Shown: positions 21,490-47,165, counted from the stretch's first letter. The stretch: 64,000 nucleotides of DNA from an uncultured Candidatus Saccharibacteria bacterium (GCA_964532425.1 CAZHIA010000001.1:44889-108888); one strand, 5' to 3'. Notes: generated by a model not told the origin, from the letters alone. Made by a program: numbers and translations.

Positions 21490-21644
21490 GATTTGAGCTG
21501 TTTCCCTCTTCTCCTTCCAGGAGAAGATGTCCGCCTCCGGCGGACAGATGAGGTGATTATGTAGTGCAAGCCATTGACCTGCTGTTTCCTGTAGGGGCGG
21601 ATAGTATCCGCCGAAATCAAATAGTGTCATCCGGAATAAAAATA

Positions 21645-21674
21645 CCAGCACCAAAATTTGGTGCTGGCTTTTGT
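21645..21674. terminator. bidirectional terminator
   Basis: CCAGCACC-aaaattt-GGTGCTGG followed by CTTTTGT. Confidence 0.7.
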
Positions 21675-21699
21675 AATGGCACACGAGTGCCGTTTTGTG

Positions 21700-22779
21700 T
21701 CAGACTGTTGCACGTTTGAGAGTAGCAGGCAGTGGCTCCATTTCCATGACCGCTTTGCGGAGTGCTTCGGCTGCACGCTCGGGCGGCAGGGGGTTAATGT
21801 AGTACCCGGTGCTGAATTCGAATCCGGCAACCTTGGTGATGCGCGGAATAATGCGCAGGCGCCAGCGGAAGAATTCCTCGGGCTTGCAGTACACGTTGGG
21901 CGGGGCTTCCTCGAGGAACATATTAAACGGCGGCAAGTACTTGAGGACCTTGTCCAGGGCCTTGAACGACATACTCATCATGGTGGCCAGTTCCTGGAAC
22001 TGGGCGCGGTTGTCGGTCAGCCGGGCCGTACTCTTCAGGGGCAGGATGGTCATTTCGAACGGGACCTTGCTGGCATACGGGCAGTAGCAGAGGAAATTGC
22101 CGCTGTGGCGCACGACCAGTTTGTGCTGGTCGGCCTGGTTGATGGCGTCCTGGAAAATGTCGCGGTTGTGCTGCTGCTGGTATTCGCGGCAGCGGAACAG
22201 CCGGTGATTGATCTTCTCCGGAACATCCGGCAAGGCAATAATCTGCCAGTGCGGATGCTCCAGGCTGGCGCCGGCTTCGCTGCCGAAGTTCTTGAATAGC
22301 TGGACGTAGCGGATCCGCTCGTGGCTGTACAGCGCGGAGAAGCGGTCGTCGGCCACCTGCAGGACGTTGAGGAGTTTCCAGACCGGCATGGCCGAGATTT
22401 CCTCGTTGTGCACGGCGGTCTCAATAATGACTTCGTGCGCGCCGAACGCGTTGGTAATAACCGAACTGCCGGCATCCTGAATGACGAACGCGGACCGCTC
22501 TTCGGGCGTGGCGGCAGGGTACTTGTTGGGCACGACGCGGAGCGTCCACTTCTGGCCGGGTTCGCCGAGCCGGATAATTTCCGGCGGGGGAACCATGTCC
22601 TCGTTACCGGTACAGAACGGGCACTTGGGATCGTGGCACGGCTTTTCGAGCTTGGCTTCGACATCAACTTTCTTTGCAAAATCGTCGGGGCGCATGGCCC
22701 GGTCGGTTGCAACAATGACCGGAGTCTCGCTGATCAATGATCGCCTGATATCTGACATACAGGCCTCCTTTGCACCCAT
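21700..22779 (-). CDS. galT: galactose-1-phosphate uridylyltransferase (HIT superfamily)
   Basis: CPFCTGNE zinc motif and the SLEHPHWQI HPH active-site motif. Confidence 0.8.
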   Translation of the reverse strand: MGAKEACMSDIRRSLISETPVIVATDRAMRPDDFAKKVDVEAKLEKPCHDPKCPFCTGNEDMVPPPEIIRLGEPGQKWTLRVVPNKYPAATPEERSAFVIQDAGSSVITNAFGAHEVIIETAVHNEEISAMPVWKLLNVLQVADDRFSALYSHERIRYVQLFKNFGSEAGASLEHPHWQIIALPDVPEKINHRLFRCREYQQQHNRDIFQDAINQADQHKLVVRHSGNFLCYCPYASKVPFEMTILPLKSTARLTDNRAQFQELATMMSMSFKALDKVLKYLPPFNMFLEEAPPNVYCKPEEFFRWRLRIIPRITKVAGFEFSTGYYINPLPPERAAEALRKAVMEMEPLPATLKRATV

Positions 22780-22835
22780 TGTAGTCCAAAGCTAACTTAA
22801 TAGCAAAGGCTGGTGAAATAACCTTCTCCACATAG

Positions 22836-23200
22836 GTGTAGTGCAGGCCCTCTTGTCCGCCGAAGCCTTGGCGAAGGTGGATGACCTGCTCAGCCCCTGT
22901 AGGGGCGGATACCATCCGCCCGGGATTAAAGCAGACGAGGTAGAATGGTAAGTTTAAGCTGTCAGTAAATGTAGTGCAGGCCCTCGGCCTGCTGGGAGAT
23001 GGCGTTTCTCCCTCTCCTTATTCGCAGATCTGCCATAGTTTTAACGTAGGAGGACATAGGAGAGGATGAAGGTGAGGTTATTGACACAGAGAGTACTGAA
23101 GGTAGAGGTTGCAGTCACCCCCTCTCCTTGCATAGGAGAGGGTAGGGGTGAGGTTATTTGGTGTATGTAGTGCAGGCCCTTGGCCTGCAAGGTGCAGGAG
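22836..23200. repeat. cluster of hairpin repeats: family D (TGTAGTGCAGGCCCTTGGCCTGC; copies at 22838, 22968 and 23165), family E (22897) and CTCTCC/GGAGAG palindromes (23108-23160)
   Basis: Several dispersed families sit together here. D copies elsewhere: 9632, 9681, 20478, 20585, 21560, 46459 and 46517. Confidence 0.8.
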
Positions 23201-23272
23201 TTTAAATCCAATTCGCCATCATCTTCAAAACAAGTTACAATTAAGACAAGAAATTCTTAATTTGAAACACAT

Positions 23273-23536: not shown

Positions 23537-23798
23537 TCTGCATTTTCTCCTCTCCTTATGAGGAGAGGGATTAAGGGAGAGGTTGCAGTCACCCCCTCTC
23601 CTTGCATAGGAGAGGGTAGGGGTGAGGTTATAAACCCTCCTCTCTTTGCTCGAAGATCCAACGCAGCCTCGCGCGAAGTTGGATAAAGAGAGGGGTTAGG
23701 GGTTCCGTTGCATTTCCCCCTCTCTTTGTCTAAAGAGAGGGGTTAGGGGTGAGTTTAAAGCTAGGCACTATTTACTCGTTACTATTTACTCGTTCCCA

Positions 23799-24561: not shown

Positions 24562-27507
24562 ATGAGAATAACAGACTGCCACGCTAAATATTTTGCTTAC
24601 GAGTTGACTAAGCGGTGTTCGTCTGATAGTTTAGAAAAATTATCTTCTACTTTATCAAACGCGCAAGTCGATCTAAATCCGCACCAAATTGAAGCGGCTC
24701 TTTTTGCGTTCCGCTCACCATTATCAAGAGGTGCAATTTTAGCCGACGAAGTGGGCTTAGGCAAGACCATTGAAGCCGGTCTGGTGTTGTCCCAAAAATG
24801 GGCGGAGCGTAAACGTAATCTACTGCTAATAGTACCCTCAAGTTTGCGCAAACAGTGGAATGCGGAATTACAGGAGAAGTTTTTTTTGCCCTCGACAATT
24901 TTAGAAACCAAAACATTTAATCAGTATATCAAAGATGGAAACCTAAATCCGTTTATCCAAGAAGACAAAATAATAATTTGTTCTTATCACTTTGCTCGTT
25001 CCAAGGCGCCTTATATTAAACAGACTAAATGGGACCTGGTAGTAATTGATGAAGCTCATAGGCTACGCAATGTCTATAAGACCAGCAATAAAATCGCTAA
25101 AGAGATTAAAACTACACTGGCTGATTTTCCAAAAATCCTCTTAACGGCAACCCCACTACAAAATTCCCTTCTCGAACTTTATGGTCTTGTTAGTATTATC
25201 GATGACCATGTGTTTGGTGATTTGAAAAGCTTTAAAGCCAACTACGCAAGAGTTTCCCGGCAGCAAGATATCTACGAAAGCGAGGTCGGCTTAGTAGAAC
25301 CAAAGCAGGAGATGTTTTCAGACTTGCGGGACCGACTAAAAACTATCTGCATCAGAACGCTTAGGCGGCAGGTACTGGAATATATCAAATATACCAAGCG
25401 TATCCCTTTAACCCAGGACTACGTTCCGACTGAACAGGAAATTGAGTTATATAACGGCATGTCTGCGTATTTACAAAGACCCAGACTTTTTGCCCTACCT
25501 TCCAGCCAGCGCCAACTCATTACTCTTATTTTACGCAAATTACTTGCTTCTTCGTCTTTTGCCATTGCTAGCACACTCAATGGCCTGGTATATAAATTAT
25601 CTAAACTGATTGAAGAAGCCGAGAAGCAGAAGGCTTCAGCTCAAGATGCTGATATTGCTGGAATTGACCAAAACTTTGAAAACTTCGAAGATGTCTCTGA
25701 TGAGTGGATCGATGATGAAGAAGAGGAAGAAACCGGGGCTGATAAGAAGAGTGTTATTTATACCGAAGAAGAGATCGCTTTAATGAAGGAAGAAAAAGCT
25801 GAACTGGAAAAATATCGGGAATTGGCAAAAAAAATCTGGACCAATTCCAAAGGGGATGCTCTGCTGATTGCTCTGCAAAAAGGCTTCGAGATGACCGAAG
25901 ATCTTGGAGCCAAGAAGAAGGCCATCATTTTTACAGAATCGACAATAACCCAAAATTACCTGTTAAACTTGCTTTCTGAAAATGGTTACAAAGATAAAAT
26001 TGTACTCTTTAATGGCTCCAATAATGATGACAAGTCAAAGCAGGTTTATGCCGACTGGATCAAAGCCAATAAGGACACGGATAAAATAACCGGCTCTAAG
26101 ACGGCTGATATCCGCGCTGCGCTGGTAGAGTATTTCCGTGATGATGCGGAGATTATGATAGCAACTGAAGCTGCCGCTGAAGGTGTTAACCTACAATTCT
26201 GCTCCCTGCTTATAAATTATGATTTGCCATGGAATCCTCAAAGGATTGAACAGCGCATTGGTCGCTGTCATCGTTATGGACAAAAGCACGACGTGGTGGT
26301 TATTAACTTCGTAAACCGTAAAAATGCCGCTGATCAGAGAGTTTACGAACTATTGGACCAAAAGTTTAGCCTATTCAAAGGTGTGTTTGGTGCAAGCGAC
26401 GAAGTACTTGGCAGTATTGAATCCGGGGTAGATTTTGAAAAGAGAATCGCTGATATTTACCAGACTTGCCGCACTGAAGAAGAGATTAATACAGCATTCG
26501 ACAACCTGCAGAAGGATATGGATGAAAGCATCCAGGACAGCCTACGGGAAACCAGGCAAAAATTATTAGAAAACTTCGATACCGAAGTACACGAAAAGCT
26601 AAAAGTTAATCTAAAGGAAACTCAGGCCTGTCTTGATACCTTTGAACACTGGCTTTGGGACATTACCAGATATTATCTCAAGGAAAATGCGGATTTCTCC
26701 GAGCATGAGTACTCATTTACCTTAAAAAATAATCCTTTCCCCAAGGAGTCTATTGACGCTGGTCCTTACAGGATTGGTAAGAATATTGAAGATGCTCACA
26801 TATACCGTCCTGGTCACCCGTTGGCACAAAGGATATTAAACCAAGTTAAATTAAAACCTATCGAGGAAGCAGAGGTTATATTTGATTATTCCAACAATCC
26901 AACCATCGTTTCAGTATTGAAACCACTGGTAGGTAAAAGCGGAGTGATGAAAATTTCTAACTATACAGTCGAAGCTTTTGAGGCCGAGGATAATATTATT
27001 GCCTCTGCTATCGATGAATCTGGAGAAGCTATTAACCCCGAGGTTGTGAAAAAACTTTTTTCTTTGTCGGCAGAACATAAGAAGTCAGCATTAGTACCGC
27101 CGGATGTTAAAACTCACCTTGAAAAAATTGAGCAGGAAACGGTTGCTGTAACATCCACTAATATTGCCGAACGCAATAGCACTTTTTTTGACAATGAAGT
27201 CGATAAACTTGAAAAGTGGGCGGACGACGTTAAAAAATCTTTAGAACTGGATCTAAAAAAACTGGATATTGAGATTAAAGCGTCCAAAACAAACGCAAAA
27301 AAAATCGTAAACTTGGAAGATAAGCTAAAAACACAGCGAGAAATTAAAGAAATGGAGAAAAAAAGGAACGAAATGCGAAAAAAGCTTTATGATGCTCAGG
27401 ATGAAGTGGAAGAAAAAAAAGAAGAACTTATAAATAAAGTCGAGGCACAATTGCACCAGAGATCGCATTTAGAACCACTATTTACGATTTACTGGAGAGT
27501 GGTTTAA
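24562..27507 (+). CDS. SNF2-family helicase (SNF2_N plus HELICc) with a C-terminal coiled-coil extension; first gene of the low-GC island operon
   Basis: LADEVGLGKTIEAG (motif I), DEAHRLRN (motif II), and ...GVNLQFCSLLINYDLPWNPQRIEQRIGRCHRYGQKHDVVVINFV (motifs V and VI). The C-terminus has heptad-like KE-rich repeats. Confidence 0.85.
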   Translation: MRITDCHAKYFAYELTKRCSSDSLEKLSSTLSNAQVDLNPHQIEAALFAFRSPLSRGAILADEVGLGKTIEAGLVLSQKWAERKRNLLLIVPSSLRKQWNAELQEKFFLPSTILETKTFNQYIKDGNLNPFIQEDKIIICSYHFARSKAPYIKQTKWDLVVIDEAHRLRNVYKTSNKIAKEIKTTLADFPKILLTATPLQNSLLELYGLVSIIDDHVFGDLKSFKANYARVSRQQDIYESEVGLVEPKQEMFSDLRDRLKTICIRTLRRQVLEYIKYTKRIPLTQDYVPTEQEIELYNGMSAYLQRPRLFALPSSQRQLITLILRKLLASSSFAIASTLNGLVYKLSKLIEEAEKQKASAQDADIAGIDQNFENFEDVSDEWIDDEEEEETGADKKSVIYTEEEIALMKEEKAELEKYRELAKKIWTNSKGDALLIALQKGFEMTEDLGAKKKAIIFTESTITQNYLLNLLSENGYKDKIVLFNGSNNDDKSKQVYADWIKANKDTDKITGSKTADIRAALVEYFRDDAEIMIATEAAAEGVNLQFCSLLINYDLPWNPQRIEQRIGRCHRYGQKHDVVVINFVNRKNAADQRVYELLDQKFSLFKGVFGASDEVLGSIESGVDFEKRIADIYQTCRTEEEINTAFDNLQKDMDESIQDSLRETRQKLLENFDTEVHEKLKVNLKETQACLDTFEHWLWDITRYYLKENADFSEHEYSFTLKNNPFPKESIDAGPYRIGKNIEDAHIYRPGHPLAQRILNQVKLKPIEEAEVIFDYSNNPTIVSVLKPLVGKSGVMKISNYTVEAFEAEDNIIASAIDESGEAINPEVVKKLFSLSAEHKKSALVPPDVKTHLEKIEQETVAVTSTNIAERNSTFFDNEVDKLEKWADDVKKSLELDLKKLDIEIKASKTNAKKIVNLEDKLKTQREIKEMEKKRNEMRKKLYDAQDEVEEKKEELINKVEAQLHQRSHLEPLFTIYWRVV

Positions 27508-27516
27508 GCAAGGTTT

Positions 27517-28176
27517 ATGCACCCCCAATTATATTATCAACACCATTTTTATCCATTATGCTATGGTATTCTACAATCCCATGAGTCTTTTTACTTAACC
27601 TCTGAATTTTGGACCGCCATGGCAGTTGTGGTGGCATTGATTACACCTTGGATTGTAAATTGGCTGAGTAACAAACCTAAGTTGAGTAAAATAAAAGCGA
27701 TAGGAACGAGGGTAGTGGACCAGACAAATTATGATCATGATGAGACTCTAAGAGAAGCATATACTCTCCATGTTGGCAGGCTAGTGTTAAAAAATGAGGG
27801 GGAATACACAGCTAGATCAGTAGAAGCATACTTGGAAAGGATTGTATACGAAGGTGAAGAGAGGAAGGATTTTCTACCCATGCCTCTTTCTTGGACCCAT
27901 GGACAACTTAATAAAGATGGAATTACAGTAAGAGATATCTATCCTAATCAAGCAGTTTATTTGGATGTTTTCAACCATTTTTTTAATCCTTATATTGTTG
28001 GTGATAGGGAAACTAAATTTGCTGTTGGGACTGGCGAGAACTTCGAAAATCTATCTTATGTCAATACTGGAAAATCAGATGTATATATAAAGTTTTATCA
28101 AGAAAGTGGACAGGTTAATACAGTACATTTAATCAGTAATTGGGATAATGGGGTCCCTGAATTATCAATTGTATGA
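27517..28176 (+). CDS. hypothetical protein (219 aa, one N-terminal TM), sitting between the SNF2 gene and the methyltransferase
   Basis: Starts 10 bp after the SNF2 stop. Its stop overlaps the mod start by 4 bp. No recognisable domain. Confidence 0.5.
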
Positions 28177-29843
28177 ATGACCATAAACAAAAACTGGAAT
28201 TAACATGGATTGGTAAGAATGAAGAGCTTAGGCTCGAACCTCGAATTCTGATTGAGGATCCCGATAAATCTTATGGTGATGTGGAATCGGAGAATCTTCT
28301 CATTCATGGTGACAATCTTCTCGCTCTGAAAGCTCTTCAGCAAGACTTCGCAAGTCGTGTTAAGTGTGTGTATATTGATCCACCCTATAATACAGGTAAG
28401 GCTTTCGACAAATATGATGACGGTATCGAACATTCAATTTGGCTCAATTTAATGCGCCCACGGATTGAGTTGCTTCACAGCCTTTTGGCTACCGATGGGA
28501 TAGTTTGGATCTCTTTAGATGACGTAGAAGTACATTATATGAAAATATTGTGTGACGAAGTATTCGGAAGAAATAATTTTATAGCTTCGTTGCCAACTAT
28601 TATGAATCTCAAAGGTAATAATGATGAATTTGGCTTTGCTGGTACTCATGAATACACTTTGGTTTACGCAAAAGATATATCCACCGCAAAAATTGGAATG
28701 TATGAGATTGATGAAGAAGAGATGGAGGATTGGGAAAAGGATGATATTGGGTTTTTCAAAAGAGGTGCAAATTTAAAAGCGACTGGAACAAACGCTCCCA
28801 GAGAAAAAAGACCAAACTTATATTATCCTTTATATGTTAGCGAAGATAATACCGTATCTATTACAAGACAGTCTGCTTCAGATGTAGAAATATTGCCTAT
28901 TACTGATGGGAAAGAAATGTCTTGGAGATGGAGTAAAGATAAAGTAACCAATGAGCCTTACAATATTATCATAGTTAGGAATGGTGATAATGTCTCTGTT
29001 TATAAAAAACAAAGGCCAGAGATTGGTGAACTGCCAAGTAAAAAACCAAAAACGTTATTTTATAAACCAGAGTATAGTAGTGGTAATGGAACTTCCCAAT
29101 TAAAGAGGTTGTTTGGGGAGGTGGTTTCTGTTTTTCCTTATCCAAAACCAGAAGAATTGATAGCTGATTTTATAAAGTTAACTACTTCTCCAGGAGATAT
29201 TATCCTGGATTCATTTCTTGGTTCTGGTACTACAGCTGCGGTGGCGACAAAGTTAGGAAGAAAATGGATAGGTGTTGAGATGGGGGATCATTCCTATACT
29301 TTGTGTGTACCACGTTTGCGATTAGTAATAGATGGTAAAGATGATGGAGGTATATCAAAAAAAGTAAACTGGAAAGGTGGTGGGGGGTTTAAATTTTATA
29401 ATCTTGCTCCCAGCTTGTTACGGAAGGACGGCTTTGGAAATTTTGTAATTGATGAAAAATATAATGCAAACATGTTGGCTGCAGCTGTGTGCAAGCATGA
29501 AGGTTTTAAATACTTCCCTGACGAAACTTTGTATTGGAAACAGGGTAGATCCACGGAAGCTGACTATATTTTTGTAACCACAGGTTTTGTTACAGTTGAA
29601 CAGCTTGATAAAATCCACGCGGAGATGAAGGAAGGGGAGAGCTTGTTAATTTGCGCCAAAGCTTATGCTTCAGGGTGCGAAAATCATTGTGGAAATATCA
29701 CTGTCAAGAAAATCCCCCAAATGATTTTGGGGAAATGCGAATTTGGGAAAGATAATTATGATCTAAACATTATCAAAGCCACAGAGGCTGAAGCTGAAGA
29801 AGCCGAAATGGCGCAAGTAATCGAAATGTCAGATGAACAATAA
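28173..29843 (+). CDS. mod: DNA methyltransferase (N6-adenine/N4-cytosine family, type III Mod-like)
   Basis: Motif [12 protein letters not shown], and an FxGxG-like AdoMet-binding region [10 protein letters not shown]. Confidence 0.85.
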
Positions 29844-32520
29844 AGCACAAAATATCGAAAACAGGTTAAGCCTAAGAACTCCGCAGTCAGATAGCTTGCA
29901 GATCCTGGAACAACTAGCAGACGTGCTGGGGCTTAAAAAAGATGTTAATGTCGCTGCTGAACTTTCTAAGGTCCAGGCGCTTTATCCAACCTGTTCTGAC
30001 TTTGAGCGGGATTTTCCCTCTGTCTGCTTTTCGCTGGCTACCGGCGTGGGCAAAACCCGTCTAATGGGTGCTTTTATTTCTTATCTCTTTACGGCAAAGG
30101 GAATAAAGAACTTTTTTGTTCTAGCCCCAAATTTAACCATATATGAAAAATTAAAAGCTGAATTAAGCGAGCCTAATCATCCTAAGTACGTATTTAAGGG
30201 GATTAGCGAATTTGCAGTTGATAGACCCGTAGTTATAAGCGGAGACGATTATACCCAAGCCAGCTCAACGCTATTTAGTGATAAGGTCAGTATAAATATT
30301 TTTAATATTTCCAAAATAAATTCGGAAGTCCGGGGAGGAAAAGAGCCTAGAATTAAACGGCTATCTGAATATTTAGGTGAATCGTACTTTAACTATCTCG
30401 CGTCACTACCTGATTTAGTGTTACTGATGGACGAATCCCACCACTACAGGGCAGACGCCGGCTTACGGGCTATTAACGAGCTTAAGCCGATATTAGGTTT
30501 GGAGCTTACGGCTACGCCTATAGATGCCAATGGCAATAAATTTAAAAATGTAGTATTTGATTACCCTCTAGCCCTGGCTTTAAAAGACGGCTTCGTAAAA
30601 GAACCCGCAGTAGCCACGAGGAGGAATTTCAACCCTATTCAATACAGAAATGATCCAAAGGAGTTGGATTTGATTAAACTGGAAGATGGGATAAGGATTC
30701 ATGAGGATACCAAAGTTGCTCTTGATATATATTCCCGAGACTCAGGCCGTAAACTAGTAAAGCCATTCGTGTTAGTCGTGACTCAAAATACAGACCATGC
30801 CAAAGAAATACATGAACTTATAGAGTCAGACAAATTCTTTGAGGGACGATACAAGGGAAAGGTTATCGAAGTTCACTCCAGGCAAACAGGAGAAGAAAAG
30901 GAAGAGAATATCGAAAAACTTCTTGCCTTGGAAAAACCTGAAAATACAATCGAAATTGTCATTCACGTGAACATGCTCAAAGAAGGTTGGGATATTGCCA
31001 ACTTATACACCATCATTCCTTTGCGTGCTGCAAATTCGGTGATCTTAACTGAACAAACCATTGGTCGTGGGTTACGGTTGCCTTACGGCGAGCGTACTGG
31101 CGATGCAAAAGTAGATAAATTGACCATAATAGCGCACGATAAATTCCAAACTATTGTTGACGCAGCTAATGACCCCAACTCTATAATTCGGCTGGAGAAT
31201 ATTATCGAGATTGATCCGGAAATCCTATCTGGTACCCAAGAAGTGATAGTGTCCACTTCAAGTTTGGATTTTGCTTTAGAACAACAGCGAACGGAAATTG
31301 CCACGATAACGAACGCTGAAGAAAAAGAGAAAGCGGAATTAGGGCTTGAGACACAAAAAATTATTTCTGAAACCATTGCCCATATTGGCAGCGGTATCAA
31401 AAATATAAATGATCTAAAAACCGACGAAGTCCAAAAGATAGTCTATCAAAAAATGGCCGAAAGGATTGACTTAAATCCGCAAAAACTTTTGCCAAACTTC
31501 AAAGCCCAAATTATGGAACGGGCTAAGGAAGCTTATACTACGGTTGTCGATAAATTACTAGAAAAGACCATACCCATTCCTCGAATATTAATTCAGCGAA
31601 AAGATGAAATCAAAAGCGGGTTTCATGATTTTGACTTAGATATAAGCAGTCTCAACTACCAGCCTGTAACGGACGAGATAATCAGGCGCACTTTAAGAAC
31701 CAACACTAGCGAGATTTTACACACCGAAGGAACGGGTATAATTAAAGATCTACCAGAAAACATTTTGGTAAACGAGCTAATTAATTATCCTGAAGTGGAT
31801 TACGACCGGGAAGCAGCTCTCCTCTACAAGCTTGCTAAACAGGCCATAGCTAAACTGGGTGTAAACCGCTGCAAGGAAGATTTAGAAAATATTGTCTGGT
31901 ACTACAAACGAGAGATCGGAAAGTATATATATGCCCAACTGCAGCAACACTTCTATCTAGAAGAGAGCGGTTTTGAAGAACCAGTGGTATATCCCTATAC
32001 GAAGATTGAGCCACATAATTATTCGAAGTTCACTGCAGACAGCATTTTCAATTACAGCGAAACCATCAACCCAACGAGCGCAATACCAACCAAAATTTTT
32101 GGTGGGTTTAAGAAAGCCTGTCATAACTTATACAAATTTGACTCTAAAACAGAAAAGGATTTCGCGTCAATTTTAGAGAGTGACAGGAATGTATTAAAGT
32201 GGTTGCGTCAATCACCTAGTCAATTTAGGATATACTGGGCCAAAAATTCCAAACAGTATTATCCCGATTTTGTAGTAGAGACATCGGATTCGATTTACTT
32301 AGTCGAAACGAAAGCACAGGATCAAGTAGGCTCGCCGGATGTATTAGACAAAAAAGAATCAGCACTCAGATACTGTAAGTTTGCCAGTGATTATAATGCT
32401 AAAAATGGTGGGAAGCCGTGGAAATATGTTTTGATCCCTCATACAGAAGTTTCCTCGAATATGAGCTTTGACTACTTTGTTGATAGATTCCAACAAGAAC
32501 TAAATGTGATCCCTGCATAG
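29833..32520 (+). CDS. res: type III restriction enzyme Res-like subunit (superfamily 2 helicase plus C-terminal PD-(D/E)xK nuclease)
   Basis: [11 protein letters not shown] (motif I), LLMDESHHY (motif II), TATP (motif III), and a C-terminal YYPDFVVE...LVETK nuclease motif. Overlaps the mod stop. Confidence 0.8.
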
Positions 32521-32785
32521 AATAGATAACATACCAGGTACCTTTTTTATAATAATGTAAGGTTATGGCTAATTTCAATTTAACAGTAGGAGTGTTAAAG
32601 GAGGTGAAGGGCGTTGTTTAGATTTATCGAGAGAACAGCCGTACAATATTTTGTTGGGAACTACTAGAAGAGGGAAAGGGGTATTGTATAATCATTTATA
32701 TAGTCAGTTGGCCAGGCAAAACTCGCCGGAGGAGGTGGGTTTGTTTTTATAGAGGGTATAAAACTCAAAGTTATTTACCATCTGC

Positions 32786-32875
32786 CCTAATCCTACTGGA
32801 CCATTCGCTCGAAAGGTCCAGTGCCCTCGAGTGCTTATTCCCGCCAGAGGCGGGCAGGCGCACGAATAAGCACTC
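32786..32875. repeat. composite hairpin repeat (H: GGACCATTCGCTCGAAAGGTCC; G: GAGTGCTTATTCG..CGAATAAGCACTC). A direct-orientation copy lies at 35388-35457.
   Basis: The H+G composite is present twice in direct orientation, bracketing genes 33110-35221. Further G copies lie at 36231-36264 and 36562-36591. Confidence 0.8.
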
Positions 32876-32889
32876 CCAATAAGTAATGC

Positions 32890-32917
32890 AAAACTGCCAT
32901 TGACAGGCAGTTTTTTG
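32890..32917 (+). terminator. rho-independent terminator
   Basis: AAACTGCC-attgac-GGCAGTTT followed by TTTTGG. Confidence 0.65.
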
Positions 32918-33109
32918 GTGATTTATACTAATATGAAATCCTTAAGGAGGATCAGAGTCAGCTTATAGGTTTGGAGGCGGTTGCCACGATTGTTCGGCAA
33001 TTGATGCTTTCATGCTATTTGACTCTGGTTTAATCCTTCGGGATTGAATCTATACTTGCTTGCCCTGGTTAACACCGGGGTGTAGTAAGCGAAAGGAGAA
33101 ACAAATAAC

Positions 33110-33463
33110 ATGAATGCATCTACCCGAGTAATCCAGGGTGATGTGATCAATATGTATGTCTCGAATGAGCATACGTACGTCCAGATACGAAACAACGGAT
33201 TCGTGAAGACAGTGGTCATCACGGCTGTTGAATCGGTCGATCCGCGCCAAGAACCGCTGGAACTGTTTTGGCCTAAGGGGATGATTCGTGAATTGCACTA
33301 TCTCCAAAAGGCCGGGTACTTTACCTGGGGCGATGTGAGCAAGCAGTATCAGTCAGTGGTCGAAACCACTAAACACATTGGACCCGAGACCTGGAAAATT
33401 CTCCGACAGGGGTTGGAAAACCGGGGACTGAAGTACTTTAGCGATCAAATGAGCATGTTCTGA
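33110..33463 (+). CDS. hypothetical protein (117 aa)
   Basis: GAAAGGAGA RBS; terminator hairpin at 33479-33507 directly downstream. Confidence 0.55.
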   Translation: MNASTRVIQGDVINMYVSNEHTYVQIRNNGFVKTVVITAVESVDPRQEPLELFWPKGMIRELHYLQKAGYFTWGDVSKQYQSVVETTKHIGPETWKILRQGLENRGLKYFSDQMSMF

Positions 33464-33632
33464 CTCTGACATCATCTTGGTGCGCTGGCTCCCAGCGCAC
33501 CTTTTTTAGTTGGCTTACTTGTGCCATTCATGGTTATTTTATGGTATTATAGAGGCGTAATATAGCTTTATGAGTGAGCAATTTGCCCAATTTCTATACT
33601 GACTTTTAAATTAACGATTAAAACACTCTTAT

Positions 33633-34466
33633 ATGTCGAGCCAAGGTATCAAGATTTTTTTACCTGAAGGTGACCCGAACAGTTTACAAGTCATCACTGT
33701 TGAAAATTGGGCAGGCAAAGCCTTTGTTATTCCAAGAGCCAAATTAAAGGAAATGAACACCAGGGAAGAAAAAGACTGGCCGGGGGTGTATTTTCTTATA
33801 GGTGAGTTTACTGATTCGATATTACCAGAGGTATACATAGGCGAGTCGGAGCATTTTTGTGATCGTTTATATACTCATGATAGTGAAAAGCAGTTTTGGA
33901 ATCGCGCTGTTGTGTTTACTGGCTCTATTGATAAAGCTGATGTAAAGTTTCTAGAAGATAAAGCTATCAAAGTTGCTAAAAAGATAAACCGTTTTCATAT
34001 TCATAATGACCAGGGAACAACCCCAAATAAACTTTCTGAATTTAAGCAAGCAGCTATTGAGAATTATTTTGAATATATAAAGCTGGTTATGGCAGTACTT
34101 GGGTATACTCTTTTTCAGGAGGTGCCGAGTAATATTCGTCCCGAAGAAATGTATTTCTGCAAAGTTGATGAAGCGGTGGGTAAGGGAAAGTTGTTGGACT
34201 CTGGTGAGTTTATTGTATTCAAGGGTTCTACAGCTCGGGTCAAAGAAACACCTAATTATCAAGCACATAATTCTGGGATTCGGTCTCGATTGTTAGCTGA
34301 AGGTGTATTGTCTCAGATTGGGGATGGTCTGTATTATTTCCAGTCAGATTATATCTTTACCAGTCCGAGTGCAGCAGCAGACACTATAGCCGGTAGGTCA
34401 ATGAATGGTTGGAAGGAGTGGAAAGATTCTCAAGGGAAAACATTAGATGATAATAAGAGGCAATGA
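33633..34466 (+). CDS. GIY-YIG nuclease-domain protein with a C-terminal extension
   Basis: PGVYFLIGEF..(10)..VYIGESE...R...H...E...N matches the GIY-YIG core. Confidence 0.6.
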   Translation: MSSQGIKIFLPEGDPNSLQVITVENWAGKAFVIPRAKLKEMNTREEKDWPGVYFLIGEFTDSILPEVYIGESEHFCDRLYTHDSEKQFWNRAVVFTGSIDKADVKFLEDKAIKVAKKINRFHIHNDQGTTPNKLSEFKQAAIENYFEYIKLVMAVLGYTLFQEVPSNIRPEEMYFCKVDEAVGKGKLLDSGEFIVFKGSTARVKETPNYQAHNSGIRSRLLAEGVLSQIGDGLYYFQSDYIFTSPSAAADTIAGRSMNGWKEWKDSQGKTLDDNKRQ

Positions 34467-35221
34467 TCACTCTGGCAGAAATATTCTCTAACTTGATTAC
34501 TCCCGCAATCCTGCTGGCGGTTTTAGGGTATCTTATTAGATTATTCGGACGAATTATTACCGATGCTGAAGCGTTCGTTGATGACTACAAATGGCATGTT
34601 GAACTTTCCGGTTTAATGTTTGCTATAAATTATATAGCTTTCCCTGGGTTAGTTGCTGTTCTGTTATTATATTTTAATCCGATAAAGTTAATATTTAGTT
34701 TTTGGGTGGGATTGGTCATGCTTACGCTAGTGACCGGAATGTTATATGTAAACGGTTCAATGTCAGGAAAAACATTTTATAAGTTGCCAGAATTGAAGTC
34801 AGGAGCAGAAAGTAAAAATAATGATGATAGTTTTCAGCTATTTTTCGAAAAATTTTTGAGCTGGTTAAATAAACCATTTTCGAACTATGGACTATTTTTG
34901 ATCTCAATAGTTTTAATGTTGATTTTGTGTGCTCAGGCAGGATCTACTTCTACCATAAAGTTAGCTATTTTGATCCTCTACAATTTTATTGCCTATATTT
35001 TCATTTGCGTTTTGTACTCCTTGAATAAATCTAAACAATTGAGTCAAGCGAATATATATTTTATTTCCGGTGTAGAGCCTGTACGAGATTGTTTACTTTT
35101 AAAGATCAATAATGATAATTTGAGGGTTAGGGTTGGGGATCAGTTATTCATAATCAACAAGAATCAAGTATTAAAAGTGGAAATTTATAAGAAAATATCT
35201 ACGAAGGCCAAAAAGAACTAA
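34463..35221 (+). CDS. hypothetical multi-pass membrane protein, translationally coupled to the GIY-YIG gene
   Basis: ATGA overlap with the upstream gene. Five or six hydrophobic helices. AT-rich. Confidence 0.55.
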   Translation: MITLAEIFSNLITPAILLAVLGYLIRLFGRIITDAEAFVDDYKWHVELSGLMFAINYIAFPGLVAVLLLYFNPIKLIFSFWVGLVMLTLVTGMLYVNGSMSGKTFYKLPELKSGAESKNNDDSFQLFFEKFLSWLNKPFSNYGLFLISIVLMLILCAQAGSTSTIKLAILILYNFIAYIFICVLYSLNKSKQLSQANIYFISGVEPVRDCLLLKINNDNLRVRVGDQLFIINKNQVLKVEIYKKISTKAKKN

Positions 35222-35499
35222 AACAAATAATTGATATATATGCCGATCAACAAAGAATGGCACCTGAAGAACAGGATGCCGAAGAATGCGACACGGGAGC
35301 AACGTATAGCCTGGCATGAGGGGCATGCCAAGCATTGCTCGTGCCGGGATTCCAAGGCTCATCTTAAGAAACTAAAATCTTCCTAATCCGACCATGGGAC
35401 CATTCGCTCGAAAGGTCCGCTACCCTCAAATGCTTATTCGCACGAATAAGCACTCGGGGGTTTGCAGCAAAAGCAAAAAAACATTATTGGGGTGAATGT

Positions 35500-36204: not shown

Positions 36205-36300
36205 AGTTAGATCATTTGAATTACGATTCCCCGGAGTGCTTATTCGCACGAATAAGCACTCCGGGAAGAATACAACAAAAATATTAAGCGGAATAAAAGT

Positions 36301-36561
36301 ATGAAAGAGCTTGAACGACAGCTGAAAGCCCTGGCCAACCGGCGGCGGCTGGGGATAGTCAAGTTCTTGGGCAAGGCCAAGTCGGCTTCGGTAGGAGAGA
36401 TTGCGAAAGAGATTAAACTCTCTTTTAAATCCACTTCCCGTCATTTGGCGGTGCTCCGGTCGGCGGATATTGTCAGCCGCGACCAGGCGAGCCTGCAGGC
36501 TATTTATAGCCTGCACAATGCGCCGCATCCGATCTCGCGCTACATAATCTCGCAGTGTTGA
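36301..36561 (+). CDS. ArsR/SmtB-family transcriptional regulator
   Basis: wHTH region ...SASVGEIAKEIKLSFKSTSRHLAVLRSADIV...; flanked on both sides by 13-2-13 G palindromes. Confidence 0.75.
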   Translation: MKELERQLKALANRRRLGIVKFLGKAKSASVGEIAKEIKLSFKSTSRHLAVLRSADIVSRDQASLQAIYSLHNAPHPISRYIISQC

Positions 36562-36622
36562 CCAGTGCTTATTCGCACGAATAAGCACTGGGGCGGAGAG
36601 TGGGGTGGGGTGGGAGGGGAAT

Positions 36623-37112: not shown

Positions 37113-37682
37113 ATGCAGATAACTTCCGCAAAATTCGTGAAAGGGGTAGTGGGTCCGGACGGGGTCTTAGACGACGGAACGCCGCAGATTGCGGTCATTG
37201 GCCGCTCTAATGTGGGCAAGTCCAGTTTGATCAATTCCCTGACGCGGCAAAAAAGTCTGGCCCGGACCAGCTCGTTTCCCGGGCACACCCAGGAGATCAA
37301 CGTCTTTTCCATCAACAAATTATTTTACCTTATTGATCTGCCCGGTTACGGGTTTGCCAAGGCCTCGAAAGAAACCCAGGAGCGGCTGCAGCGGATCATC
37401 TATTGGTATTTGTTCGAATCGGGCTGCGAGCAGAAAAAAGTCGTATTGATCGTGGATGCTGTCGTCGGTCCGACAGTCAATGACGAGCAGATGCTGAACA
37501 GCCTGGAAGAGCACGGCAAGGATGTGGTCGTGGTGGCCAATAAGGTAGACAAGCTCAAAAGTTCCGAGTACAAAAAGAAACTGAAGGTCATTCAGGATAT
37601 GGCCGGCGCAATCCCGGTGGTGCCATACTCGTCGGAAAAGAAGATCGGCATTCAGGAATTGACGAACTTATTATTTGATTAG
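37113..37682 (+). CDS. engB: ribosome-biogenesis GTPase EngB (YsxC/YihA)
   Basis: G1 GRSNVGKSS, G3 DLPGYG, G4 NKVDK. Confidence 0.85.
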   Translation: MQITSAKFVKGVVGPDGVLDDGTPQIAVIGRSNVGKSSLINSLTRQKSLARTSSFPGHTQEINVFSINKLFYLIDLPGYGFAKASKETQERLQRIIYWYLFESGCEQKKVVLIVDAVVGPTVNDEQMLNSLEEHGKDVVVVANKVDKLKSSEYKKKLKVIQDMAGAIPVVPYSSEKKIGIQELTNLLFD

Positions 37683-37693
37683 GGAGTAGTTTT

Positions 37694-37866
37694 AAAATCT
37701 CCTTGTGGCGTCATTCTGAGTCCTGAGCCTGCCAACTCCTCGAGTCTGAGCGATCTCGGAATCGAAGACCAACAGGCAGGTTCGAAGAAGGACGAAGAAT
37801 CCCATTATCGGTAATAGATGCTTCGGTCATCTGATTCCCTCAGCATGACGCCGGAGAACAGATATT
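37694..37866 (+). mobile_element. partial (core hairpin) copy of the MITE-like element, carrying a 53-bp internal insertion
   Basis: GGCGTCATTCTGAGTCCTGAG...CTCAGCATGACGCC, homologous to the cores at 9885-9978 and 44800-44905. Confidence 0.7.
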
Positions 37867-37897
37867 TTTGTTACGAAACTATCTCTAGGCTTATTGT

Positions 37898-38349: not shown

Positions 38350-38829
38350 ATGGAAAAATTGAAATATAAACTTACCACGCCGCAGCTGATGTGGGCCATC
38401 GTGCTGGCCGGTGGCGTGGTGCTCGCCTTGGCAGTACCTAAAGGGAAATTGTTTGATAGCGGCTGGTGGGGTATTGCGGTGCTGGCGCTCGGCGTGATCA
38501 ACTGGATCGCAGTAGCCCGGGCCGCCGGCCACATTCACCGCCAGGCTTTGCGCAGCGTGCAGGGAATTGACCACATTGTTACCGAAGGCATGTATGGGGT
38601 TGTCCGGCATCCGATGTATGCGGCCGGCATGATGGCAGCCTGGTCCATCTTTATTTGGCAGCCGTACTACCGGGTACTGGCCGTGGTCATGTGGGCCACA
38701 GTGGTATTGTTGTTCTGGTCGAACCTCGAGGATCGCATGCTGGAGGAGAAGTTTATGGAAGAATACCGGGAATATAAAAAGCGCGTGCCGATGATTGTGC
38801 CGAGGATAGGGGGAATAGTAAACAGATAG
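38350..38829 (+). CDS. isoprenylcysteine carboxyl methyltransferase (ICMT/PEMT) family membrane methyltransferase
   Basis: VVRHPMYAAGMMAAWSIF motif with TM helices. Confidence 0.65.
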   Translation: MEKLKYKLTTPQLMWAIVLAGGVVLALAVPKGKLFDSGWWGIAVLALGVINWIAVARAAGHIHRQALRSVQGIDHIVTEGMYGVVRHPMYAAGMMAAWSIFIWQPYYRVLAVVMWATVVLLFWSNLEDRMLEEKFMEEYREYKKRVPMIVPRIGGIVNR

Positions 38830-38939
38830 AAAAATAAAAAGATAGAAAAATAGAAAGATGGAAATTAGAAAGATTTAAAATGATGGATTCCGGATGGCAC
38901 TTCGCTCCGCTTCGTTGCCTCCGGAACGACACAGAGAAC

Positions 38940-46385: not shown

Positions 46386-46662
46386 ATGTGTTCGTGATGC
46401 TTTGACGGGTACTTGTCTCTAAGACGGTGCCCGTCATTTTTAATCCATTGGAGAGGATTGTAGTGCAGGGCCACGCTAAGCGTGGCAGGGCCTTGCTCTG
46501 CCCAACATTCAACTATGCGGCAGGCCGAGGGCCTGCGCTACATTATTGGCAATCAGCGGACAAGGAACGGTCGCGACCGTTCCCTACAGGCAGACCCCCG
46601 GGCTTGCGCCACAGCCTTACAATAGACATCAAGGCCAGCACTGTATCTTCGTCTTACACAAC

Positions 46663-47067: not shown

Positions 47068-47165
47068 GAATTTCAAACTTAAAATTTCAAATCAAATCCT
47101 AATGTCATAATATCAAATCTGACATTGAGTTATTGGACATTGATTTGGAATTTATCATTTGAAAT
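47068..47165. repeat. AT-rich palindromic element with GAATTTCAAA/TTTGAAATTC termini; related copies at 52907-53001 and 39890-39990
   Basis: Perfect 10-bp terminal inverted repeat; AATTTCAAAT-type motifs also terminate the MITE-like element. Confidence 0.65.

What the first reader, a model, noticed from the sequence alone, without database searches (positions are those of the whole stretch)
32786..35457. GIY-YIG nuclease plus multi-pass membrane protein module bracketed by ~70-bp direct repeats
A composite hairpin element occurs twice in direct orientation, at 32786-32875 and 35388-35457. It is made of GGACCATTCGCTCGAAAGGTCC plus GAGTGCTTATTCG..CGAATAAGCACTC.

The two copies flank a 2.5-kb AT-rich segment containing:
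- a small protein (33110-33463)
- a GIY-YIG nuclease-domain protein (33633-34466)
- a translationally coupled membrane protein of five or six TM helices (34463-35221)

A nuclease with a membrane effector, sitting right beside a restriction-modification-like operon, looks like an abortive-infection or defence cassette. The flanking direct repeats suggest insertion or excision by recombination.
Basis: partly seen in the sequence, partly recalled or inferred. Interest (0 to 1): 0.7.

Follow-up and report, generated by a model that had tools for sequence, protein, structure and literature searches.

The report
Defence genes beside repeated ArsR-box palindromes
The repeats and genes are real, but the repeats look like copies of a palindromic box linked to a nearby ArsR-type regulator rather than recombination scars, and the nuclease and membrane protein are two separately known types of defence-island passenger, not a conserved two-gene system.

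Summary
**Observation.** Confirmed. A ~75-90 bp composite element occurs twice in direct orientation, at 32786-32876 and 35382-35456. It brackets p117, a GIY-YIG nuclease, a 4-nt-overlapping 5-TM protein and a small ORF (p51).

**Nuclease.** It has intact GIY-YIG motifs, a confident GIY-YIG fold and a C-terminal DUF4357/RAMA-like domain. It is a full-length member of PADLOC candidate family PDC-S14.

**Membrane protein.** It is not an orphan. It belongs to an unannotated family of about 100 cluster representatives, which usually lie at the end of type I R-M or other defence or mobile operons. The two families are not conserved partners: 0 of 7 nuclease contexts, and 1 convergent case among the membrane-protein loci.

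**Repeats.**
- Their main hairpin is one of four local copies of an 11-2-11 palindrome with core ATTCG-NN-CGAAT.
- In diverse CPR genomes this palindrome brackets every ArsR-family homologue examined (14 of 14 gene ends). It also precedes the conserved p234 gene.
- The first hairpin is a variant of the same box.
- The low-GC foreign DNA (about 33.5-35.23 kb) does not coincide with the repeat boundaries.
- No recombinase lies between the repeats, and no empty site could be found.

**Verdict.** This is an ordinary defence island placed next to a regulator's box-decorated locus. The insertion or excision reading is not supported.

The parts
24562..27507 (+). DrmD-like SNF2 helicase, first gene of low-GC block A
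   Evidence: PADLOC DrmD E 1e-207. NCBIfam DISARM_DrmD_b scores 692 bits, below the 950 cut-off. GC3 0.39.
27517..28176 (+). 219-aa protein of unknown function inside the R-M operon
   Evidence: No Pfam, NCBIfam or PHROG match. GC3 0.29.
28173..29843 (+). Type III R-M methyltransferase (Mod, N6/N4 class)
   Evidence: Pfam N6_N4_Mtase E 9e-44. PADLOC MTase_III E 4e-167.
29833..32520 (+). Type III restriction subunit (Res)
   Evidence: Pfam ResIII and Helicase_C. PADLOC REase_III E 2.5e-189.
32786..32876 (+). Composite box element, copy 1. Contains hairpin 1 (32798-32819, variant box ATTCGCTCGAAA) and the palindrome (arms 32829-32840 / 32863-32875), which is split by a 19-nt GC hairpin at 32841-32859
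   Evidence: Low-GC block A ends exactly at its left edge.
32889..32929 (+). Terminator-like hairpin with a T-run, overlapped by a promoter-like TTGACA-18-TATACT
   Evidence: Sequence. Promoter scan gives 11 of 12 matches.
33110..33463 (+). p117, a small protein of unknown function with host-like composition
   Evidence: ORF with an AGGAG ribosome-binding site. GC3 0.60. No family, PDB or phage match. Followed by an intrinsic terminator at 33479-33501.
33633..34466 (+). GIY-YIG nuclease with a C-terminal DUF4357/RAMA-like DNA-reader domain (PADLOC PDC-S14 family)
34463..35221 (+). Membrane protein with five TM helices and a C-terminal Sm/Hfq-like beta-barrel. Member of an unannotated family associated with R-M systems and mobile elements
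35231..35386 (+). p51, a small ORF (ATG at 35240) with host-like GC3. Its stop codon lies in the first bases of composite copy 2
   Evidence: No family match.
35382..35456 (+). Composite box element, copy 2. Contains hairpin 1 (35397-35418) and the palindrome (35428-35455). It ends 44 nt upstream of the p234 start codon
35500..36204 (+). p234, a conserved CPR protein of unknown function. Paired with an ArsR-family homologue in three of the four distinct loci examined
36230..36265 (.). Palindrome 3, with perfect 17-nt arms. It ends about 36 nt upstream of the ArsR start
36301..36561 (+). ArsR/SmtB-family winged-helix regulator without the canonical metal-binding motifs
   Evidence: NCBIfam HTH_metalloreg E 6e-17, above cut-off. 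PDB profile hits HlyU, CzrA, PagR, NolR and SmtB. Absence of metal-binding motifs is by inspection of the sequence.
36563..36590 (.). Palindrome 4, starting 2 nt after the ArsR stop codon

Best explanation
The region is the tail of a horizontally acquired defence island, lying next to a resident locus (p234 and an ArsR-type regulator) that is decorated with the regulator's palindromic boxes. The 'direct repeats' are two copies of a tandem-box element of that family. They are not recombination sites of the cassette.

**Shown.**
- The box is an 11-2-11 palindrome, GTGCTTATTCG-NN-CGAATAAGCAC, with core ATTCG-N2-CGAAT.
- It occurs four times in the window, only between 32.8 and 36.6 kb, and brackets the ArsR gene.
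- The same arrangement, one box before the start codon and one at the stop codon, holds for all 7 ArsR homologues examined in other CPR genomes.
- Hairpin 1 is a one-mismatch variant of the box.

**Inferred.**
- The boxes are operators of the ArsR-like dimer, with the 12-2-12 geometry typical of ArsR/SmtB operators.
- Copy 2 is the control region of p234.
- Copy 1 is an older duplicate, now disrupted, in front of p117.
- Two low-GC blocks were inserted around it: SNF2 plus type III R-M at about 24.5-32.8 kb, and GIY-YIG plus TM at about 33.5-35.2 kb.

**The GIY-YIG/DUF4357 protein.** Motifs and fold are shown. Function is inferred from the family's domain partners. It most likely acts as a stand-alone, type IV-like restriction nuclease. 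Its RAMA-like C-terminal domain would read the modification state of DNA, probably N6-methyladenine, and direct GIY-YIG cleavage.

**The membrane protein.** It belongs to a family that rides at the 3' end of type I R-M and other defence or conjugative operons. Its cytoplasmic Sm-like barrel suggests a ring-shaped membrane oligomer. I take it to be an independent accessory, such as an exclusion or abortive factor, that was co-acquired and co-transcribed with the nuclease. I do not take it to be the nuclease's obligatory effector.
For: **Repeats.**
- Exact duplication of hairpin 1, with 0 expected by chance.
- The palindrome has 4 local copies. Exact 12-nt cores of the palindrome copies lie only at 35.4-36.6 kb, plus one exact match inside the TM gene at 34543.
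- The 22-nt core was found in 10 loci of Doudnabacteria, Harrisonbacteria and Saccharibacteria MAGs.
- ArsR homologues of 59-70% identity lie next to it.
- 14 of 14 ArsR gene ends carry an exact ATTCG-NN-CGAAT box.
- Three of the four distinct p234-homologue loci carry an ArsR homologue next to the gene (L017, L018/L019; L020 has none detectable). L017 and L018/L019 also have a box 30-56 nt upstream of the p234 homologue.
- The recognition helix differs between the two box classes: SFKSTSRHLAVL versus SFKATSKHLGIL.
- The ArsR profile hits CzrA, SmtB, HlyU and NolR.

**Composition.**
- GC3 is 0.34-0.35 for GIY and TM and 0.29-0.39 for the R-M block. It is 0.60 for p117 and p51, 0.52 for p234 and 0.67 for ArsR.
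- The 200-nt GC profile agrees.
- No recombinase domain lies between the repeats.

**Nuclease.**
- Y53, Y68-I69-G70, R78, H82 and E108 are conserved.
- AF2 mean pLDDT is 90.
- PDC-S14 E 1e-87. DUF4357 E 1e-22.
- RAMA and DUF4357 are described as fused to URI/GIY-YIG, GmrSD and McrB in R-M contexts (PMC4738411, PMC4619093, PMC11090510).

**Membrane family.**
- 102 representatives.
- Contexts are given.
- No TM-family hit in 9 nuclease-homologue loci.
Against: - No binding data exist, so the operator role is inferred.
- Outside the invariant core the arms still tend to stay complementary with different bases: pair 9-36 is GC in 5 copies and CG in 4, and the covariation score is 0.164 against 0.118±0.02, reached by 7 of 500 shuffles. 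A protein operator does not require this. It hints at selection for a hairpin in RNA or DNA.
- One box (36563) faces a convergent gene and so cannot be a promoter operator there.
- 7 of the 10 genome loci holding the core have no ArsR gene within the 4.3-8 kb of sequence held for each.
- The two composite copies share leader and spacer sequence beyond the boxes and have sharp ends. This shows a true duplication whose mechanism is unknown.
- GIY and TM share composition and a 4-nt overlap, so a functional partnership cannot be excluded.
- The rest of the source genome could not be scanned.
Confidence: 0.6

Rival explanations
1. One reading: the composite repeats are attL/attR-like scars of a cassette (p117-GIY-TM-p51) that integrated or can excise by recombination between them.
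For: - Two direct copies with sharp ends and shared non-box sequence (CCTAATCC leader and spacer), 2.6 kb apart.
- Hairpin 1 is unique to these two sites within 64 kb.
- The enclosed nuclease and TM genes are compositionally foreign.
- Any pair of direct repeats can mediate deletion by homologous recombination.
Against: - No integrase, recombinase or transposase domain lies in or beside the segment.
- The foreign low-GC block runs about 33.5-35.23 kb. It is separated from both repeats by host-like genes p117 and p51.
- The copies are only 88% identical, with indels and a 19-nt insertion, so any duplication is old.
- The main repeat component is a multi-copy box family tied to ArsR/p234 in other phyla.
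- Copy 2 occupies the position of the box that precedes p234 homologues in genomes lacking the cassette.
- No empty site was found, but no close relative exists to test it: hairpin 1 is absent from the genome, metagenome and viral collections.
Confidence: 0.1
2. The palindromes are structural nucleic-acid hairpins rather than protein operators. They would be REP/BIME-like or transcript-end stabilising or terminating elements that spread through CPR genomes. Their proximity to ArsR genes would be secondary.
For: - Very stable predicted hairpins, with z-scores of -4 to -9.
- Arms stay complementary beyond the invariant core, with compensatory changes.
- All four window copies lie just downstream of a + strand gene.
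- 7 of 10 genome hits have no ArsR gene within the 4.3-8 kb of sequence held for each.
- The genome carries several other hairpin repeat families.
- A second mini-hairpin is nested in the loop of copy 1.
Against: - There is no T-run after the palindromes, whereas this genome's genuine terminators have one.
- A 22-nt core identical across different CPR phyla is not expected of a mere terminator.
- Strict association with both ends of 7 of 7 ArsR genes.
- In the window the copies cluster in 3.8 kb, apart from one exact core match inside the TM gene.
- The class II versions in L017, L018 and L020 are consistently asymmetric, so they are poor hairpins, yet they are conserved in sequence and position.
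- No Rfam family matches.
Confidence: 0.25
3. The GIY-YIG/DUF4357 nuclease and the membrane protein form a genuine two-component abortive-infection system: a sensor nuclease plus a membrane-disrupting effector.
For: - ATGA start/stop overlap with a good ribosome-binding site.
- Near-identical GC3 of 0.34 and 0.35, suggesting joint acquisition.
- Both families are enriched next to R-M and defence genes.
- One other locus (L037) has both families within about 0.5 kb.
- The TM model is a confident helical membrane bundle with an oligomerisation-prone Sm-like domain.
Against: - 0 of 7 distinct nuclease-homologue contexts, including the closest at 45-53% identity, contain the TM family.
- Of 32 TM-family loci, only L037 has a strong DUF4357 nuclease match, and there the genes are convergent. 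L045 and L039 give only marginal matches.
- TM homologues follow many different upstream genes equally tightly: HsdS, YgjP-like, Schlafen, an S51 peptidase and a TraG-like protein.
- PADLOC lists the nuclease family as a single-gene candidate.
Confidence: 0.2

Closest known systems
PADLOC candidate PDC-S14: GIY-YIG (URI) nuclease fused to DUF4357/RAMA, as described in comparative genomics of R-M systems (Iyer et al. 2016, PMC4738411)
   Same: - Full-length HMM match, E 1e-87.
- Same length of about 280 aa.
- Same N-terminal GIY-YIG and C-terminal DUF4357 architecture.
- Same habit of lying beside R-M systems.
   Different: No family member examined here has a demonstrated activity. In this window the gene is translationally coupled to a membrane protein, which none of 7 homologue contexts shows.
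ArsR/SmtB repressors with 12-2-12 inverted-repeat operators (for example SmtB, CzrA; own knowledge of the family)
   Same: - An 86-aa winged-helix protein above the NCBIfam ArsR cut-off.
- An 11-2-11 palindrome 10-50 nt upstream of its own gene.
   Different: - No metal-binding motifs are visible.
- A second box sits at the stop codon of the gene in all 7 cases.
- Outer arms show hairpin-like compensatory variation.
- Binding has not been tested.
REP/BIME-type intergenic palindromes
   Same: Short, stable intergenic palindromes, sometimes in mosaic (two-hairpin) units, with nested insertions.
   Different: - Apart from one match inside the TM gene, the copies cluster in 3.8 kb of the window around one regulator gene.
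- The core sequence is conserved across phyla.
- No RAYT gene was seen.
- The window's GTAG-type hairpins are a separate set of families.
Genomic-island att sites / integron attC sites
   Same: Direct repeats with hairpin potential that flank genes next to a defence island.
   Different: - No integrase is present.
- Repeat boundaries do not match the compositional boundaries.
- The 28-nt boxes lack the attC R'/R'' cores and are shorter than attC sites, judged by eye and from memory.
PD-T4-3 and other GIY-YIG type IV restriction or defence nucleases (PDB 9u75)
   Different: Only the catalytic domain is similar. The reader domain here is RAMA-like, and its specificity is unknown.

Membership tests
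GIY-YIG nuclease superfamily | GIY and YIG motifs 10-15 residues apart | tested here: met
   G51-V52-Y53 and Y68-I69-G70. Y53 and Y68 are invariant, and I69 and G70 at least 90% conserved, in 22 homologues.
GIY-YIG nuclease superfamily | Catalytic Arg after YIG and a downstream metal-binding Glu | tested here: met
   R78 and E108 are invariant and H82 is at least 90% conserved. The SLX1 alignment places these motifs correctly, though only at E 0.33.
GIY-YIG nuclease superfamily | GIY-YIG alpha/beta fold | tested here: met
GIY-YIG nuclease superfamily | Nuclease activity | not testable with these tools
   Requires biochemistry.
PADLOC PDC-S14 (GIY-YIG + DUF4357) | Full-length match to the family models, with a C-terminal DUF4357 above the Pfam cut-off | tested here: met
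   PDLC04925 E 1.4e-87 over residues 1-275. PF14267 scores 79.9 bits against a cut-off of 38.4.
PADLOC PDC-S14 (GIY-YIG + DUF4357) | Anti-phage function | not testable with these tools
   A candidate family only. The three papers found that mention it were not read in detail, and I am not aware of an experimental test.
Integrated element bounded by att repeats | Recombinase or integrase encoded in or beside the element | tested here: not met
   No such domain in p117, GIY, TM, p51 or p234.
Integrated element bounded by att repeats | Repeats coincide with the boundaries of foreign DNA | tested here: not met
   The low-GC block runs about 33.5-35.23 kb. Host-like p117 and p51 lie between it and the repeats.
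Integrated element bounded by att repeats | Empty site with a single repeat copy in relatives | tested here: inconclusive
   Hairpin 1 is absent from the genome, metagenome and viral collections. The closest p234 homologues are only about 55% identical.
ArsR/SmtB operator | Inverted repeat with about 12-2-12 geometry | tested here: met
   GTGCTTATTCG-NN-CGAATAAGCAC; 17 of 22 arm positions are invariant and two more at least 90% conserved in 16 copies.
ArsR/SmtB operator | Located in the control region of the regulator's own gene or regulon | tested here: met
   A box lies 10-50 nt upstream of 7 of 7 ArsR genes, and also at all 7 stop codons. A box lies upstream of p234 and of its homologues in L017 and L018/L019.
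ArsR/SmtB operator | Specific binding by the regulator | not testable with these tools
   Requires EMSA, footprinting or DAP-seq.
REP/BIME-like dispersed palindromes | Dispersed genome-wide in many intergenic regions | tested here: inconclusive
   In the window the copies cluster in 3.8 kb of 64 kb, apart from one exact core match inside the TM gene. Other genomes have 1-2 per 8-kb locus, often without ArsR nearby. The rest of the source genome was not available.
Two-gene nuclease + membrane-effector abortive-infection system | Conserved co-occurrence of the two families | tested here: not met
   0 of 9 nuclease-homologue loci (7 contexts) have the TM family. Of 32 TM loci, only one has a strong DUF4357 nuclease match, and it is convergent.

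The most novel reading that the evidence does not exclude
The ATTCG-N2-CGAAT palindromes, the small ArsR-like winged-helix protein they bracket on both sides, and the p234 protein may form a conserved, so far undescribed regulatory or semi-autonomous module of CPR/Patescibacteria. The boxes would also mark the sites next to which R-M and defence genes accumulate, as seen in the window, L017 and L020. In addition, the 5-TM plus Sm-like-barrel family may be a new membrane component that plugs into type I R-M and other defence operons.
Probability: 0.3. Interest if true: 0.55.

Novelty: new member of a known kind. Interest (0 to 1): 0.35.

Why it matters
As submitted, the finding reduces to a defence island with a known candidate nuclease family. 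That is useful for annotation but not surprising.

Two by-products are more useful.

1. **A palindromic box tied to an ArsR-like regulator.** The box is conserved across phyla, brackets the regulator gene and precedes p234 in CPR bacteria. Almost nothing is known about transcriptional regulation in this group. The result gives a directly testable regulator-operator pair.

2. **An unannotated membrane-protein family.** It has about 100 cluster representatives, five TM helices and an Sm-like barrel. It recurrently ends type I R-M, Schlafen/AbiE, NACHT and conjugative operons. It is a reasonable candidate for a new defence or exclusion component.

Tried and rejected
- **Exact search for hairpin 1.** Searched in 185,579 species-representative genomes, JGI metagenomes and IMG/VR. 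Nothing was found, so no empty-site test was possible.
- **Palindrome in viral contigs.** None found.
- **Word-indexed homology search of the TM protein.** It returned only the protein itself and wrongly suggested an orphan. Full HMMER found 102 relatives.
- **The search for related loci with broad TM alignments.** It failed for lack of conserved stretches. A 6-sequence alignment worked.
- **TM family in other collections.** Not found in viral contigs, plasmids or phages. p117 was not found in phages or the PDB, and p234 was not found in the PDB.
- **Rfam.** No family at the repeats; only chance-level hits with E about 0.5.
- **tRNA target for integration.** None in the window.
- **attC/integron reading.** Considered and dropped on length and missing core sites, by eye only. 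No integrase was seen among the ORFs examined.
- **Inverted repeat 33521-33535 / 35249-35263 around the low-GC block.** It matches 13 of 15 positions and lies partly inside p51. Judged likely to be chance.
Full report
**1. Observation**

- GGACCATTCGCTCGAAAGGTCC occurs exactly twice in the window, at 32798-32819 and 35397-35418. None was expected in shuffles.
- With its flanks it forms a discrete composite element. The element starts at CCTAATCC (32786 / 35382) and ends at ..AAGCACTC (32875 / 35455).
- One 43-nt stretch is 88% identical. A local alignment of the wider regions finds no homology beyond these ends.
- The second hairpin, GAGTGCTTATTCG-CA-CGAATAAGCACTC, is not private to the two copies. 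Two more perfect copies lie at 36234-36261 and 36563-36590.
- In copy 1 the palindrome is split exactly at its dyad by a 19-nt GC-rich mini-hairpin (32841-32859). In copy 2 the left arm carries two mismatches.

The three ORFs exist as stated. The nuclease and membrane genes overlap by ATGA. A fourth small ORF, p51 (35231/35240-35386), was overlooked. An independent Logan contig from SRR11567520 is identical to the window over 30423-35453 and ends inside the palindrome of copy 2. The arrangement is therefore not peculiar to one assembly.

**2. The surrounding island**

Base composition shows a low-GC stretch from about 24.5 to 35.2 kb in a window of about 50% GC. Gene by gene it is a mosaic.
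- Block A has GC3 of 0.29-0.39. It holds a DrmD-like SNF2 helicase (24562-27507), a 219-aa protein, type III Mod (28173-29843) and Res (29833-32520). It includes the spacer up to 32785, so it ends exactly at the left edge of composite copy 1.
- Next come composite copy 1 (GC 0.59) and p117 (GC3 0.60), which are host-like.
- Block B has GC3 of 0.34-0.35. It holds the GIY-YIG gene and the membrane gene and spans about 33.5-35.23 kb.
- Then follow p51 (GC3 0.60), composite copy 2, p234 (0.52) and ArsR (0.67).

The identities of the R-M genes rest on Pfam and PADLOC. The helicase scores below the NCBIfam DISARM cut-off. The repeats therefore enclose host-like genes as well as the foreign pair. The compositional junctions of block B lie inside the bracket, not at the repeats.

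**3. The nuclease**

Sequence and structure:
- Pfam finds a C-terminal DUF4357 at E 1e-22, a weak RAMA match, and DUF2045 over residues 36-124.
- PADLOC matches candidate family PDC-S14 over the full length at E 1e-87. PHROGs has a family of unknown function.
- 109 homologues of about 280 aa were found, several annotated 'GIY-YIG nuclease family protein'.
- In an alignment of 22 of them, Y53 (GVY), Y68, R78 and E108 are invariant. I69, G70 and H82 are at least 90% conserved. This is the canonical GIY-YIG constellation, by my own knowledge of I-TevI and UvrC.
- A PDB profile search gives only a weak SLX1 match, but with the motifs aligned.
- The AF2 model is confident, with mean pLDDT 90.

The refutation condition 'lacks catalytic residues' is therefore not met.

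Literature:
- RAMA was defined as a domain fused to N6A-methylases and to nuclease domains, including URI (the GIY-YIG superfamily) and T5orf172, in R-M systems (PMC4738411).
- DUF4357 is recorded in GmrSD proteins and as an McrB-fused domain (PMC4619093 and PMC11090510).

Inference: this is a stand-alone, probably modification-sensing (type IV-like) restriction nuclease.

Seven distinct genomic contexts of homologues were inspected. The upstream or nearby genes were:
- a Hypoth_Ymh protein;
- a prophage-like region with a ParB-methylase;
- a type I/IIG R-M plus a 217-aa protein;
- a MazG-like protein;
- a tRNA_anti-like protein, near a type ISP enzyme;
- HsdR.

Three contexts have an adjacent R-M system. 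None has a membrane partner of the family found here.

**4. The membrane protein**

The word-indexed search found only the protein itself. A full HMMER scan of 1.84 billion representatives found 102 relatives, 71 of them at E ≤ 1e-10. Most are about 230-260 aa and align over nearly their full length.

Conserved features:
- an RFFGKxIxDQKPFxDDRxWxIELSG motif after TM1;
- a C-terminal LLKxNxDNIRxR...ILNK segment.

Contexts were examined for 32 loci:
- at the end of, or beside, type I R-M operons (L021, L035, L043/44, L047, L049), often after a YgjP-like gene;
- between a Schlafen/AlbA_2 gene and an AbiEii gene (L040);
- before a NACHT protein (L045);
- after Replic_Relax and a TraG-like coupling protein (L029-32, L041).

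A DUF4357 nuclease with a strong match lies nearby only in L037, on the opposite strand. L045 and L039 give only marginal matches. The family was not found in plasmid, phage or viral collections.

The protein is real and conserved, and it is a passenger of defence islands and mobile elements. It is not a fixed partner of the nuclease. The shared composition and the ATGA overlap suggest the two genes arrived and are expressed together here. That is the only evidence for a functional pair.

**5. What the repeats are**

Distribution of the palindrome:
- The 22-nt core TGCTTATTCGCACGAATAAGCA was found in 10 loci of Doudnabacteria, Harrisonbacteria, Saccharibacteria and one unclassified MAG.
- In three of these it lies immediately upstream of an ArsR homologue of 61-70% identity.

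Link to p234 and ArsR:
- Of the four distinct p234-homologue loci retrieved, three have an ArsR-family homologue next to the gene (L017, L018/L019). L020 has none detectable.
- All of those loci contain multiple ATTCG-NN-CGAAT palindromes.
- For all seven ArsR homologues (window, L004, L007, L010, L017 twice, L018), an exact box lies 10-50 nt before the start codon and another at or overlapping the stop codon. That is 14 of 14 gene ends.
- A 10-base motif is expected about once per megabase, so this is far beyond chance.

Distribution in the window:
- Exact cores of the palindrome copies occur only at 35.4-36.6 kb. One further exact match lies inside the TM gene at 34543.
- The two hairpin-1 copies are one-mismatch variants, ATTCGCTCGAAA.
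- Hairpin 1's ACCATTCG half-site also matches the boxes that flank the p234-adjacent ArsR paralogue in L017.

Two box classes exist:
- class I is GTGCTTATTCG-NN-CGAATAAGCAC;
- class II is GTTCTCTAATTCG-CG-CGAATAGGCGAAC.

They go with different recognition-helix sequences, SFKSTSRHLAVL versus SFKATSKHLGIL. This agrees with regulator-operator co-variation, although it is confounded by phylogeny.

The regulator is a bona fide ArsR/SmtB-family protein. The 11-2-11 geometry resembles the 12-2-12 operators of that family (own knowledge).

I therefore read the composite as a tandem pair of ArsR boxes. Copy 2 is the control region of p234 and ends 44 nt before its ATG. Copy 1 is an older duplicate in front of p117, with a promoter-like TTGACA-18-TATACT at 32900-32929. 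Its main box is now disrupted by an insertion.

**6. Caveats on the operator reading**

- The palindromes are also very stable hairpins.
- Outside the invariant core, the arms tend to stay complementary with different bases. Pair 9-36 is GC in 5 copies and CG in 4. The covariation score exceeds all but 7 of 500 shuffles. This is not needed for a protein site and suggests some selection for hairpin or cruciform formation.
- One window copy (36563) faces a convergent ankyrin gene.
- Seven of the ten genome loci holding the core have no ArsR gene within the 4.3-8 kb of sequence held for each.
- On the other hand, the palindromes lack the T-run that genuine terminators in this window have.
- The class II boxes are consistently asymmetric.
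- No Rfam family matches.

I put the operator reading at about 0.6 and a purely structural hairpin reading at about 0.25.

**7. The insertion/excision hypothesis**

Against it:
- No recombinase is present.
- The repeat boundaries do not match the foreign-DNA boundaries.
- Host-like genes lie inside the bracket.
- The copies have diverged.
- The repeat units belong to a family with another, better-supported role.

For it:
- The duplication is real and sharp-edged, and it includes non-box sequence. Its origin is unexplained.
- The R-M block abuts copy 1 exactly.
- R-M genes also lie upstream of p234 homologues in L017 and L020, with boxes between them. The box-rich region may therefore be a preferred landing zone.

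The decisive empty-site test could not be run, because no close relative was found. I give this reading about 0.1.

**8. Verdict**

- The 'defence' flavour is supported at the family level.
- The 'two-gene Abi cassette' and 'recombination bracket' readings are not supported.
- The nuclease is a new member of a known candidate family.
- The more interesting material is incidental: the ArsR-box system of CPR bacteria and the R-M-associated membrane family.

Noticed in passing
window 36230-36590; L004, L007, L010, L017, L018: Every ArsR-family homologue examined (7 of 7, from several CPR lineages) is bracketed by an ATTCG-NN-CGAAT palindrome before its start codon and another at its stop codon. 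In class I genes the last codons (..Q-C-stop) are encoded by the palindrome arm itself.
   Followed up: yes
window 34463-35221; L021-L052: The membrane protein defines an unannotated family of about 100 cluster representatives, with five TM helices and an Sm/Hfq-like barrel. It recurrently ends type I R-M operons or sits beside Schlafen/AbiEii, NACHT and TraG-like/Replic_Relax genes.
   Followed up: partly
window 24562-32520: A single low-GC operon combines a DrmD-like SNF2 helicase (below the DISARM equivalog cut-off), an unknown 219-aa protein and a type III Mod/Res pair. No DrmA or DrmB was seen, so it is not a canonical DISARM system.
   Followed up: partly
window 32841-32859: A 19-nt GC-rich mini-hairpin (CCGCCAGAGGCGGGCAGGC) is inserted exactly at the dyad of the copy-1 palindrome. 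It resembles the window's GC-rich hairpin repeats.
   Followed up: partly
window 16884-19718; L004, L007, L010: Homologues of the secreted LCAT/lipase-like 944-aa protein lie directly upstream of palindrome-ArsR-palindrome in three other CPR genomes. Here the gene is 16.5 kb from ArsR. This suggests the intervening 19.8-36.2 kb is lineage-specific.
   Followed up: partly
L017 1-3332; L020 1-4694: R-M genes also lie upstream of p234 homologues in other CPR genomes, with ATTCG-NN-CGAAT boxes in between. L017 has MvaI/BcnI, a LexA-methylase fusion and IS1595. L020 has a type I system with Fic, followed by HicA.
   Followed up: partly
window 9855-10012 and 37678-37888: A repeat of about 160-210 nt (78% identity) has complementary termini GGCGTCATTCTGAG...CTCAGnATGACGCC. 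The second copy carries a 53-nt insertion. Both copies are intergenic, one before a PIF1-like helicase gene and one before an HNH gene. It may be a MITE-like element or a structured RNA. Rfam has no match.
   Followed up: no
window 9508-23203 and 46557-51147: Several families of GC-rich hairpins are preceded by GTAG (for example ATGTAGGGGCGGCCATTGGCCGCCC and GTAGGGGACGGTCGCGACCGTCCCGTAC). They are REP-like and distinct from the ArsR-box family.
   Followed up: no
window 5622-5735: A SAM riboswitch (RF00162, 55.5 bits) lies upstream of the gene at 5772-6812.
   Followed up: no
window 13813-13852, 15962-16037, 19120-19159: Short tandem arrays of a 9-nt unit (CCTATCCAT-like) lie at gene ends around the PIF1-like helicase and lipase-like genes. 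A-rich 8-nt arrays lie at 5494-5595 and 38805-38881.
   Followed up: no
window 10220-11755 and 13866-15968: Two paralogous PIF1-like helicase genes share 70-85% identical DNA segments.
   Followed up: no
window 23089-23157 and 23563-23631: A 69-nt direct repeat, 93% identical, contains its own hairpin (CCCCTCTCCTTGCATAGGAGAGGG). It lies just upstream of the island's left flank.
   Followed up: no
window 34543-34554: An exact ATTCGGACGAAT core lies inside the membrane-protein gene, with partly palindromic flanks. It is probably chance, but it is the only exact core match outside the intergenic boxes.
   Followed up: no
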